Assembly (NCBI RefSeq): GCF_009914755.1
Contig: NC_060947.1
Length of the DNA stretch: 64,000 bases
Reading direction: 5' to 3' (one strand)
Origin: the human T2T-CHM13v2.0 reference genome, Homo sapiens
The translations under genes and the position numbers were made by a program. The notes below the pieces were generated by a model. That model saw only the letters and a program-made list of their open reading frames with translations, did not search any database and was not told the DNA's origin. Below are positions 23,397 to 29,066 of this stretch, in pieces. Positions within the stretch are counted from its first letter, which is position 1. Each line of letters starts with the position of its first letter.

Positions 23397-23433
<37 letters not shown>
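23397..23433. repeat. Poly(T) homopolymer
   Basis: About 37 uninterrupted T; no TSD found. Confidence 0.9.
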
Positions 23434-26451: not shown

Positions 26452-26873
26452 ATCTCCTATAACTTGTCTCCTTTCTCATTATGCTTCAGCCACCCTAACT
26501 GTATCATTCAGGGTTTTAAATTAAAAATAACAGGGATGTATGCTGAATAATTAATGAGAAAATGAGCTTATTAAAATAAATTTTTAAAAATTGTTGGAAG
26601 GATTAAAGAATCAGGCTCCAGGCTATACATACAGAAATAGCAGCCAAAATTATCTTCAGAACTGGTGGCATGAGAGAATCACTGCAGCTATTGAGCACTA
26701 AATATGTACCACATCATTTCTGAGCCAGGAACGTAACTTTGCAGCATCATTATGACTGCTAAAGAGAAAAGGCCAATGACCCCTCCCCGGGCCTCTATCT
26801 CTTGAATCAAAATTTCAAATGACTGTGTCTGATTGTTGAAGCCTGAGTCATACTTCCGTACCCTATGTCTAAG

Positions 26874-27427
26874 CGTGTTAGTAAGGGCTTTCCAAAGAAA
26901 CAGGACTAATAAGAGATAGGTGACAGGGAGAGACAGAGAAAGAGAGAGAATGATGAAAGAGGATTTAATTGGGAAATTGGCTCACACAATTGTGGAGACC
27001 AAGAAGTCCCATGATAGCTGCAAGCTAGAGATGCTGGCTCAGTCAAAGTCAGAAGGCCTCAGAACTAGGAAAGCCAATGGTATAACTCCCAGTCCAAGAT
27101 CACAGGCCTGAGAACTCAGGGCAATGCTGGTACAAGTCCTGGGGTCCAAGGGCTGCGGAGCCTGGAGTTGTTGTCCAAGGAAAAGAGAAAGGGTATATCA
27201 CAGCTTCAGCAGATGGATCAAAACATTTATCCTTTCTCTGTGTTTGTTGTCTCAGGGCACTCAGAAGATTGGATGGTACCTGTCTACGTAGAGGGCAGAC
27301 GTTTCTCACCTAGTTCACTCAACTCACAGGATAATCTCTTCTGACACATACCCCAAATATAATGCTTTAACAAATTTCTAGGTATTTTTTAATCCAGTCA
27401 AGTTGACATCTAAAATTAAACATAACA
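26874..27427 (-). mobile_element. MLT2B-type ERVL LTR
   Basis: gttagtaagggctttccaaagaaacag…ggaaattggctcacacaattgtggag…aatccagtcaagttgacatctaaaattaaacataaca. Confidence 0.8.
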
Positions 27428-27508
27428 GCAAGAAAGGCCAAAAAGTTAAATACTTAATATTTCACCTCTTGAAGAAAGAGGCATAAAGAGTTAAAAAGAC
27501 AAGACTTC

Positions 27509-27529
27509 ACTCTATTAAATCTTGCAACT

Positions 27530-27555
<26 letters not shown>
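27509..27555 (+). mobile_element. Ultra-short L1-mediated retrocopy: HERV-W/LTR17-like R end plus poly(A)
   Basis: actctATTAAAtcttgcaactgc plus an A tract, between perfect 16-bp TSDs aaaaagacaagacttc (27493-27508/27556-27571). The left TSD is preceded by TT, giving a TT/AAAA endonuclease site. Confidence 0.8.
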
Positions 27556-27562
<7 letters not shown>

Positions 27563-27649
27563 CAAGACTTCTCAAAACAAAGGAAAGGCTTCAAGATTTC
27601 AGGTTGCCTGAACACATTGCAAATATCTGCATCCACCATAGCTCTCTTT

Positions 27650-28035
27650 CTAAATTATGTTGTTTGGTCCTGAATCAAGACCTTTGTACTTGTAATCACT
27701 TCCTCTCTGAACATTCTTTATGTTCTTCATATGGTTAACTCATTCTCCTTATTCAGATTTCAGCTCAAATCTCCTCTAAGTGGTCCATCTGGCAACATTA
27801 TCTAATGTTCTTCCCTAGTCACCCTCTATCTTTACCTTGTTTTATCTTCTTTATACCACTTACCACTATTTAAATTTAACATAAATTTTACTTGTGGACT
27901 TATTATTGTTATGCATCCCCACTAGACTATAAGTTCCCTGAGAGTAGTGACCATGTCAATTTTATACATCACTATACTCTCATGTTGGCATAGTACCTGG
28001 CACATAGTAAGTTCTCAAAACATACTTGTTGAATT
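27650..28035 (+). mobile_element. L2a 3' end
   Basis: ccactagactataagttccctgagagtag…tagtacctggcacatagtaagttctcaaaacatacttgttgaat. Confidence 0.8.
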
Positions 28036-28044
28036 AAAAAAAAA

Positions 28045-28240
28045 TGTGGTATAGTAGAAGAGGTACATGAATTGAAAGTAAACATACCAAAGTTTGAACC
28101 CTTGCTATACCAAATACAAACTATGTGACCTAAATTAAGTGATTTAACATATTTGGACATTTAATTTCTCATCTGTAAATAATAATGATGATAATAATAA
28201 TGACAGAAACATCATTTTGAAAAAAAAATGTGTAAAGTCC
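28045..28240 (+). mobile_element. MIR SINE
   Basis: gtggtatagtagaagag…ctatgtgacc…ttctcatctgtaaat. Confidence 0.65.
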
Positions 28241-28345
28241 TAGATCATTGCAGTAGAGAAGTTTGTAAAAGTTATCACTGATTCAGTAATTAATACTAAA
28301 AAGAGACTATGAGGATATATGTATATATACACATACATACATACA

Positions 28346-29066
28346 CAGTTGAACCTAGAACAACAAACAACATGGGTTTGAATTGCATGGACCCATTTAT
28401 ACATGGATTTCTTCCACCTTAGCCACCCCTGAGACAGTAAGACCAACTCCTCTTCCTCCTCCTACTCAGCCTACTCAGTGTGAAGACAACAAGGTCGAAG
28501 ATCTTTATTGTGATCCACTTCCACTTTATATGAAGATCTTTACTGTGACCCACATTTACTGAATAGTAAATATATTTTCACCTTCTTATGATTGTCTTGA
28601 TAACTTTTTCTTTTCTTTAGCTTACTTTATGGTAAGCATATAGTATATAATACATACAACATACAAAATACGTGTTAACTGTTTATGTTATCGATAAAGT
28701 TTCTGGTCAACGGTATACTATTAGTAGTAATTTTTCAGGGAGCCAAAATTTATATACAGATTTTTTTTCTTGTTATATTTATTTATTTTAGATGTGCAGA
28801 ATGTGCAGGTTTGTTGCATAGGTATACGTGTGCTGTGGTGGTTTGCTGCACCTACTGGACCCATCCTTTAAGTCGCCTCCCCTCAACCCCCACCCCACAA
28901 CAGTCCCTGGTGTGTTGTTCCCCTCTCTGTGCCCATGTGTTCCCAATGTTCTCCTCCCACATATGAGTGACAACATGTGGTATTTGGTTTTCTGTTCCTA
29001 TACACAGATTTTTGAATGTGCAGGAAGTCAGTGCCCCTAACCTCTGCATTGCTTAAGAGTCAACTT
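28346..29066 (+). mobile_element. Tigger2a DNA transposon split by an L1PA 3' end
   Basis: cagttgaacctagaacaac…gccacccctgagacagtaagacc…cccctaacctctgcattgcttaagagtcaact. Confidence 0.88.
28766..28998 (-). mobile_element. Short L1PA8-like 3' end
   Basis: gatgtgcagaatgtgcaggtttgttgcataggtatacg…tatttggttttctgttcc; TSD tata(t/c)acagattttt (28751-28765/28999-29013). Confidence 0.85.

What the first reader, a model, noticed from the sequence alone, without database searches (positions are those of the whole stretch)
27491..27571. 23-nt HERV-W-like processed retrocopy with perfect 16-bp TSDs and pure poly(A)
Seen: tt|AAAAAGACAAGACTTC, then actctATTAAAtcttgcaactgc, then a 29-A run whose last five A begin the second AAAAAGACAAGACTTC. 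This carries every hallmark of target-primed reverse transcription: a TT/AAAA site, a perfect TSD, and a poly(A) signal 12 nt before the tail. Established, from recalled consensus: the HERV-W LTR17 R region ends …tttcactctattaaatcttgcaactgca, and HERV-W mRNAs are known to be copied by L1 as processed pseudogenes. The ttc end of the TSD matches the LTR bases upstream, giving 5' microhomology. Inference: this is an extreme 5'-truncated ERV transcript retrocopy, too short for repeat masking. The unmutated tail and TSD suggest it may be young or polymorphic.
Basis: partly seen in the sequence, partly recalled or inferred. Interest (0 to 1): 0.72.

Follow-up and report, generated by a model that had tools for sequence, protein, structure and literature searches.

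The report
Tiny HERV-W retrocopy with poly(A) tail
This is a 23-base scrap from the end of an ancient human retrovirus (HERV-W) with a poly(A) tail and a duplicated target site, likely pasted in by LINE-1 enzymes millions of years ago; it is an unusually short but otherwise ordinary member of a known class.

Summary
The anatomy is confirmed: TT|AAAA site, exact 16-bp duplication (27493-27508, 27556-27571), 23-nt insert, ATTAAA 12 nt before a 29-A run. The insert is the R-region end of the HERV-W LTR: 370 exact genome copies of the 22-mer, control 0, and the syncytin-1 3' LTR holds the exact 26-mer. It is the shortest of 91 tailed copies with an exact 18-mer, but not unique: a 27-nt sibling and a 22-23-nt sibling (one substitution) also lie on chrX. 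Youth is not shown. Pure tails of 24 A or more occur in 12 of 90 other copies, and copies I match to loci with gibbon or rhesus orthologues have 26-32 A, one with an exact 16-bp TSD. My estimate of a human-specific origin is about 0.1. The template RNA cannot be assigned: 1 of 50 traceable copies came from a host read-through transcript. Very short HERV-W retrocopies are already in print. Ape and pangenome empty sites could not be checked. Verdict: new member of a known kind, modest interest.

The parts
27491..27497 (+). L1 endonuclease-type target TT|AAAAA (bottom strand TTTTT/AA)
   Evidence: sequence; motif as defined for HERV-W processed pseudogenes in PMC5016936
27493..27508 (+). left target-site duplication, 16 bp
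27506..27508 (+). TTC 5'-junction microhomology shared by TSD end and the LTR bases upstream of the insert
   Evidence: 26-mer exact in ERVW-1 3' LTR and in 56 of 68 tailed copies; chance about 0.015 from local composition
27509..27531 (+). 23-nt 3' end of the HERV-W (LTR17) R region, ending at the R/U5 poly(A) site
27514..27519 (+). ATTAAA polyadenylation signal
27532..27555 (+). poly(A) tail, 24 A outside the TSD (29-A run to 27560)
27556..27571 (+). right target-site duplication, identical to the left

Best explanation
The insert is the last 23 bases of a HERV-W LTR R region plus poly(A) between exact 16-bp duplications, likely made when LINE-1 proteins reverse-transcribed a HERV-W RNA at this site and stopped almost at once, probably during the main HERV-W retrocopy wave over about 15 million years ago. 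Shown: anatomy, family identity, and that the copy ends where other tailed copies end and LTRs run on into U5. Inferred: L1 ORF2p nicked the bottom strand at TTTT/AA, primed on the poly(A), copied the tail and 23-26 nt, and the cDNA end annealed through 3-4 nt of microhomology to the upstream target end, giving the TSD. Inferred: the template was a proviral transcript, the event is old and fixed, and the copy is neutral (no promoter or coding sequence, no gene in the window).
For: 370 exact 22-mer copies, control 0; all 30 read are one LTR family, 25 running into U5 and 5 into A-rich tails. The env frame upstream of tailed copy L096 hits Syncytin-1 at E 1.7e-170 and is 90% identical to the chr7 locus with a 540-aa open frame, whose 3' LTR holds the exact 26-mer. 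Tailed copies form a continuum from 23 nt to over 1.4 kb. 49 of 50 copies long enough to trace run into HERV-W internal sequence. Pure A runs of 24 or more occur in 12 of 90 other tailed copies, 29 or more in 4 of 90. Long copies with tails of 23 A or more are as diverged from their nearest held relative as the rest (median 6.1% vs 5.8%, 12 vs 39 copies). L069 (738 nt, A26, exact 16-bp TSD) and L085 (about 1155 nt, A32) match by band and length loci 8q21.11 (gibbon orthologue) and 18p11.21 (rhesus orthologue) in Table S1 of PMC5775608. Over 90% of HERV-W loci date to 43-20 Mya and only 1 of 211 looks human-specific, itself uncertain (PMC5775608 passages).
Against: The combination of exact TSD, exact insert and long pure tail is 9 to 97 times likelier for a very young copy than for an old one in my rough model, which lifts the chance of a human-specific origin to 0.04-0.32 (assumed rates). 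The two short siblings look more decayed than this copy. 23 nt cannot name a source locus, and a host read-through source exists for L038. No orthologue or haplotype could be examined.
Confidence: 0.75

Rival explanations
1. Same mechanism but recent: a human-specific, possibly still polymorphic L1-made copy of an LTR17-ended RNA (the filled allele would be 63 bp longer than the empty one).
For: Exact 16-bp TSD, exact 23-mer and a 29-A run; only 4 of 90 other tailed copies have a run that long. Species-specific ERV-W retrocopies are reported in chimpanzee and gorilla. Polymorphic canonical insertions have median 30-bp poly(A) tracts (PMC12350158 passage).
Against: Prior about 1 in 211. Old copies show the same features: L069, L085, L091, L038. 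An exact TSD plus exact insert has probability 0.11-0.39 at 17-30 Myr for rates of 0.10-0.13% per Myr.
Confidence: 0.12
2. The template was a host read-through transcript, or an L1/SVA 3' transduction (orphan), that used the poly(A) signal of an LTR17 copy, not a proviral RNA.
For: L038 (chr3:29.856 Mb) holds about 530 nt of unique host DNA plus LTR17 U3-R between exact 15-bp TSDs and is 93-94% identical to one source at chr7:156.566 Mb whose LTR continues into U5. Hundreds of LTRs carry the same signal.
Against: Only 1 of 50 traceable tailed copies has such a source. I did not survey the LTRs for upstream L1 or SVA elements.
Confidence: 0.09
3. A longer HERV-W retrocopy lost its 5' part later through a deletion that used the TTC microhomology.
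For: Internal deletions are common in HERV-W copies; the 3-4 nt microhomology fits deletion as well as TPRT.
Against: The deletion would have to end at or inside the left TSD, and two siblings show the same ultra-short layout with intact TSDs. No HERV-W sequence lies in the 1.47 kb upstream.
Confidence: 0.03
4. Chance sequence or an assembly artefact.
For: Homopolymer length can be miscalled in assemblies (general knowledge).
Against: The 16-mer repeat is far above chance; the 22-mer has 370 family copies and the reversed control none; the end point equals the family poly(A) site.
Confidence: 0.01

Closest known systems
HERV-W (LTR17/HERV17) L1-processed pseudogenes; 135 catalogued in hg19 (PMC5016936, section 5 and passages read; Pavlicek 2002 Genome Res and Gene papers not held, known only through that paper's account)
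   Same: Ends at the R/U5 boundary, poly(A) tail, TT/AAAA site, TSD. The 0-0.5 kb class was reported as the commonest in the Pavlicek dataset.
   Different: Only 23 nt; no 5' R-U5, no U3, no internal sequence. Table S1 of PMC5775608 has one Xq27 row (Xq27.1, about 3.2 kb), not this site. TSD 16 bp against the 5-15 bp quoted (13 bp if the microhomology is given to the insert).
5'-truncated L1 in-trans retrocopies (Alu, SVA, mRNA) with junction microhomology (PMC2912911, passages read)
   Same: TT/AAAA target, TSD in the 14-16 bp peak given for full-length L1, short 5' microhomology.
   Different: The template is an ERV LTR end, and the copy is near the lower limit at which a source can be recognised.
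Orphan 3' transductions of L1/SVA (PMC12350158, passages read)
   Same: Short non-L1 sequence plus poly(A) and TSD.
   Different: No unique sequence to map a source; the insert is a multi-copy LTR end.

Membership tests
HERV-W LTR17 sequence | Identity to the R end of a bona fide HERV-W LTR | tested here: met
   Exact 26-mer in the 3' LTR beside the 540-aa syncytin-1-like frame on chr7 and in L096
HERV-W LTR17 sequence | Better match to LTR17 than to related ERV1 LTR consensus models (LTR12/HERV9, LTR30) | not testable with these tools
   No Dfam or RepBase library; all 30 of the 370 exact copies that I read belong to one family by eye
HERV-W processed pseudogene | 3' LTR ends at the R/U5 boundary (consensus position 326) | tested here: met
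   Tail starts where LTRs continue into U5; U3-R measures 322-328 nt in L058 and L038; definition
HERV-W processed pseudogene | Poly(A) tail | tested here: met
   24 A outside the TSD
HERV-W processed pseudogene | TT/AAAA insertion motif | tested here: met
   27491-27497
HERV-W processed pseudogene | Target-site duplication (5-15 bp quoted) | tested here: met
   16 bp exact, or 13 bp plus 3 nt microhomology; nine other copies have exact 15-18 bp TSDs
Full-length HERV-W processed pseudogene | 5' LTR of R-U5 form and colinearity with a proviral mRNA | tested here: not met
   No HERV-W sequence upstream; so it is filed only as a 5'-truncated retrocopy, not as a full-length one
HERV-W processed pseudogene | Template was a proviral transcript | tested here: inconclusive
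   49 of 50 traceable copies are proviral, 1 is host read-through; this copy is too short to trace
Polymorphic or human-specific retrotransposon insertion | Empty site in apes or in human haplotypes | not testable with these tools
   No relatives held; no paralogous empty site in the genome; the long-read supplement was cut when stored
Orphan 3' transduction | Traceable source downstream of a full-length L1 or SVA | not tested
   The 370 LTR copies were not surveyed for upstream elements

The most novel reading that the evidence does not exclude
A human-specific, perhaps still segregating, L1-made copy of an LTR17-ended RNA: direct evidence that HERV-W-ended transcripts were retrotransposed in the human germ line after the split from chimpanzee, hidden because it is too short for repeat masking and for insertion classifiers.
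Probability: 0.12. Interest if true: 0.65.

Novelty: new member of a known kind. Interest (0 to 1): 0.3.

Why it matters
As it stands it marks the short end of L1 5' truncation for a trans-mobilised RNA and shows that HERV-W retrocopy catalogues miss a few copies under 30 nt (3 found) and at least 8 of 91 under 100 nt. That refines a known point. It would matter more if the site proved empty in apes or in some people, because only one doubtful human-specific HERV-W locus is reported and ongoing L1 mobilisation of HERV-W has been proposed in a review (PMC5537654 passages). One look at public ape and pangenome alignments would settle it.

Tried and rejected
Paralogous empty site: a 1.3-kb query found only the locus itself and an old 70%-identity repeat in the left flank. 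Viral contig scan for the 27-mer: 0. Rfam over 26500-28500: 4 weak matches far below gathering score, none on the insert. The bacterial promoter/terminator scan is not relevant to human DNA. Tail purity as a clock: no useful relation to divergence (Spearman 0.26, p 0.07, 51 copies, and in the wrong direction). L032 looked like a 50-nt copy but has inverted LTR upstream (5' inversion) and was dropped from the short class. L035 and L041 are short but gave no convincing TSD. Further ultra-short copies: searches added none; one search added L145. These patterns miss copies with two or more changes and many with one. Polymorphism in print: no hit for the coordinates or LTR17/HERV17 in the supplements of PMC12350158, uninformative because the main table file was cut when stored; none in the four supplements of PMC2912911; the locus table of PMC5016936 was not readable. 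Paper searches listed nothing on this locus; one search returned irrelevant papers. The two Pavlicek 2002 papers are not held, so they or unseen supplements may already list such copies.

Full report
Observation. The 16-mer occurs twice in 64 kb against 0.01 expected. The site is single-copy: a 1.3-kb query returned itself and an old repeat family at about 70% identity over roughly 26925-27430. No HERV-W sequence lies in the 1.47 kb upstream.

Identity. The 22-mer has 370 exact copies in the genome and the reversed control none. All 30 copies read share the same LTR upstream; 25 continue into a common U5-like sequence and 5 turn into an A-rich tail at the same base as the window copy. A tailed copy on Xq (L096) has an env frame that hits Syncytin-1 at E 1.7e-170 and is 90% identical to a chr7 locus with a 540-aa open frame, which I take to be ERVW-1 (7q21.2, named in PMC5016936). 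Its 3' LTR holds the window's 26-mer exactly. PMC5016936 (section 5 and passages read) defines HERV-W processed pseudogenes by a 3' LTR ending at position 326, a poly(A) tail, TT/AAAA and a 5-15 bp TSD, and counts about 800 HERV-W LTRs, consistent with 370 exact copies. I could not compare with Dfam LTR12 or LTR30 models.

Census. 69 places carry the 18-mer followed by 6 or more A and 22 distinct places by 3-5 A. All 91 were read: 68 over about 1.5 kb, 18 over 90 nt upstream, and four only 57-67 nt back. Lengths run from 23 nt to over 1.4 kb. At least 8 of 91 are under 100 nt (23, 27, 41, about 42, 73, 74, 79, 81 nt), six with a recognisable TSD. The window copy is the shortest of these. Five more places from a 12-mer scan are all over 100 nt. 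A one-mismatch scan added L145 at chrX:12.27 Mb: 22-23 nt with one substitution, a 13-14 bp exact TSD and a tail decayed to a microsatellite. L095 at chrX:100.24 Mb is 27 nt with a 13-bp TSD with one mismatch. So the ultra-short class is real but small, and the window copy is not alone. The account of Pavlicek et al. (Gene 2002, PMID 12468100, not held) in PMC5016936 says the 0-0.5 kb class was the commonest in their dataset, though Grandi et al. attribute part of that to fragmentation.

Mechanism. Shown: target motif, TSD, tail, family end point, and a 3-nt junction microhomology (4 nt if the source was of the CTTC sub-lineage; chance about 0.015). Inferred from established L1 biology and PMC2912911 (passages): ORF2p nicked at TTTT/AA, primed on the tail, copied 23-26 nt beyond it, and the cDNA end joined the upstream target end. 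Microhomology of 4-6 nt is also seen in longer copies such as L093 and L090.

Age. Among 90 other tailed copies 12 have pure runs of 24 A or more and 4 have 29 or more (median 10.5). Among 51 long copies, those with 23 A or more differ from their nearest held relative by a median 6.1%, the others by 5.8%. Of 26 copies with a chosen boundary, 15 have exact TSDs of 10 bp or more and nine of 15-18 bp (biased upward because most boundaries were found by exact match). Matching by band and length to Table S1 of PMC5775608 (parts 1-2 read, row search): L069 (738 nt, A26, exact 16-bp TSD) to 8q21.11 with a gibbon orthologue; L085 (about 1155 nt, A32) to 18p11.21 with a rhesus orthologue; L044 (1225 nt, A28) to 3q25.2 and L092 (A24) to 22q12.3, both with gibbon orthologues. 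These matches are mine, across assemblies. The same paper dates over 90% of loci to 43-20 Mya, with one uncertain human-specific locus among 211 and a few ape-specific retrocopies. Against my reading: a rough model still favours youth by 9- to 97-fold, giving 0.04-0.13 (tail threshold 24) or 0.12-0.32 (threshold 29) for a human-specific origin from a prior of 1 in 211 (rates and the young-case probability are assumed), and both short siblings look more decayed. I put it at about 0.12. Orthologues and haplotypes were not available, and the supplement searches were uninformative.

Template. Of 50 tailed copies long enough to trace, 49 run into HERV-W internal sequence; some carry R-U5 at their 5' end within about 1.1 kb, as spliced transcripts would. 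One, L038, holds about 530 nt of unique host DNA plus U3-R between exact 15-bp TSDs and maps at 93-94% to a single chr7 source whose LTR continues into U5. A host read-through RNA ending at an LTR17 poly(A) site can therefore be retrocopied, and 23 nt cannot exclude that origin here.

Function. No gene lies in the window (hub annotation); the insert sits about 100 bp beyond a RefSeq enhancer and carries only a poly(A) signal without the U5 downstream sequence. Neutrality is the default inference; nothing was tested.

Verdict. A real, L1-type, extremely truncated retrocopy of the HERV-W LTR end; new member of a known kind. The locus did not appear in the paper searches run, which cover open-access text only. 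Interest 0.3; about 0.65 if the empty site is found in apes or people.

Noticed in passing
L145 (G000:C23:12267063-12267093, minus), L095 (G000:C23:100239263, minus) and window 27509-27531: All three LTR17-end copies under 30 nt that I found lie on chrX, which holds 8 of the 91 tailed exact-18-mer copies. Post hoc and three cases only; may be chance.
   Followed up: partly
L038 (G000:C3:29855871-29856728, minus); source L144 (G000:C7:156.566 Mb): 858-nt retrocopy of a host read-through transcript: about 530 nt unique DNA plus LTR17 U3-R and poly(A), exact 15-bp TSD, 93-94% identical to one source whose LTR continues into U5.
   Followed up: partly
L032 (G000:C2:11102665, minus): Tailed copy with 50 nt of LTR end preceded by inverted LTR sequence, a twin-priming-like 5' inversion.
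   Followed up: partly
L040, L053, L079, L081: Retrocopies of about 1.1 kb between TSDs; L040 and L079 carry LTR R-U5-like sequence at the 5' end joined to the env end and U3-R, as from a spliced HERV-W transcript.
   Followed up: partly
window 26927-27427: Old interspersed repeat (about 70% identity to many loci) overlapping the RefSeq enhancer and not in the listed masked stretches; its end resembles an MLT-type LTR (recalled, not tested).
   Followed up: no
window 23397-23433 (minus strand): A pure run of 37 A on the minus strand followed by a G run, with no upstream exact duplication found; origin unexplained.
   Followed up: partly
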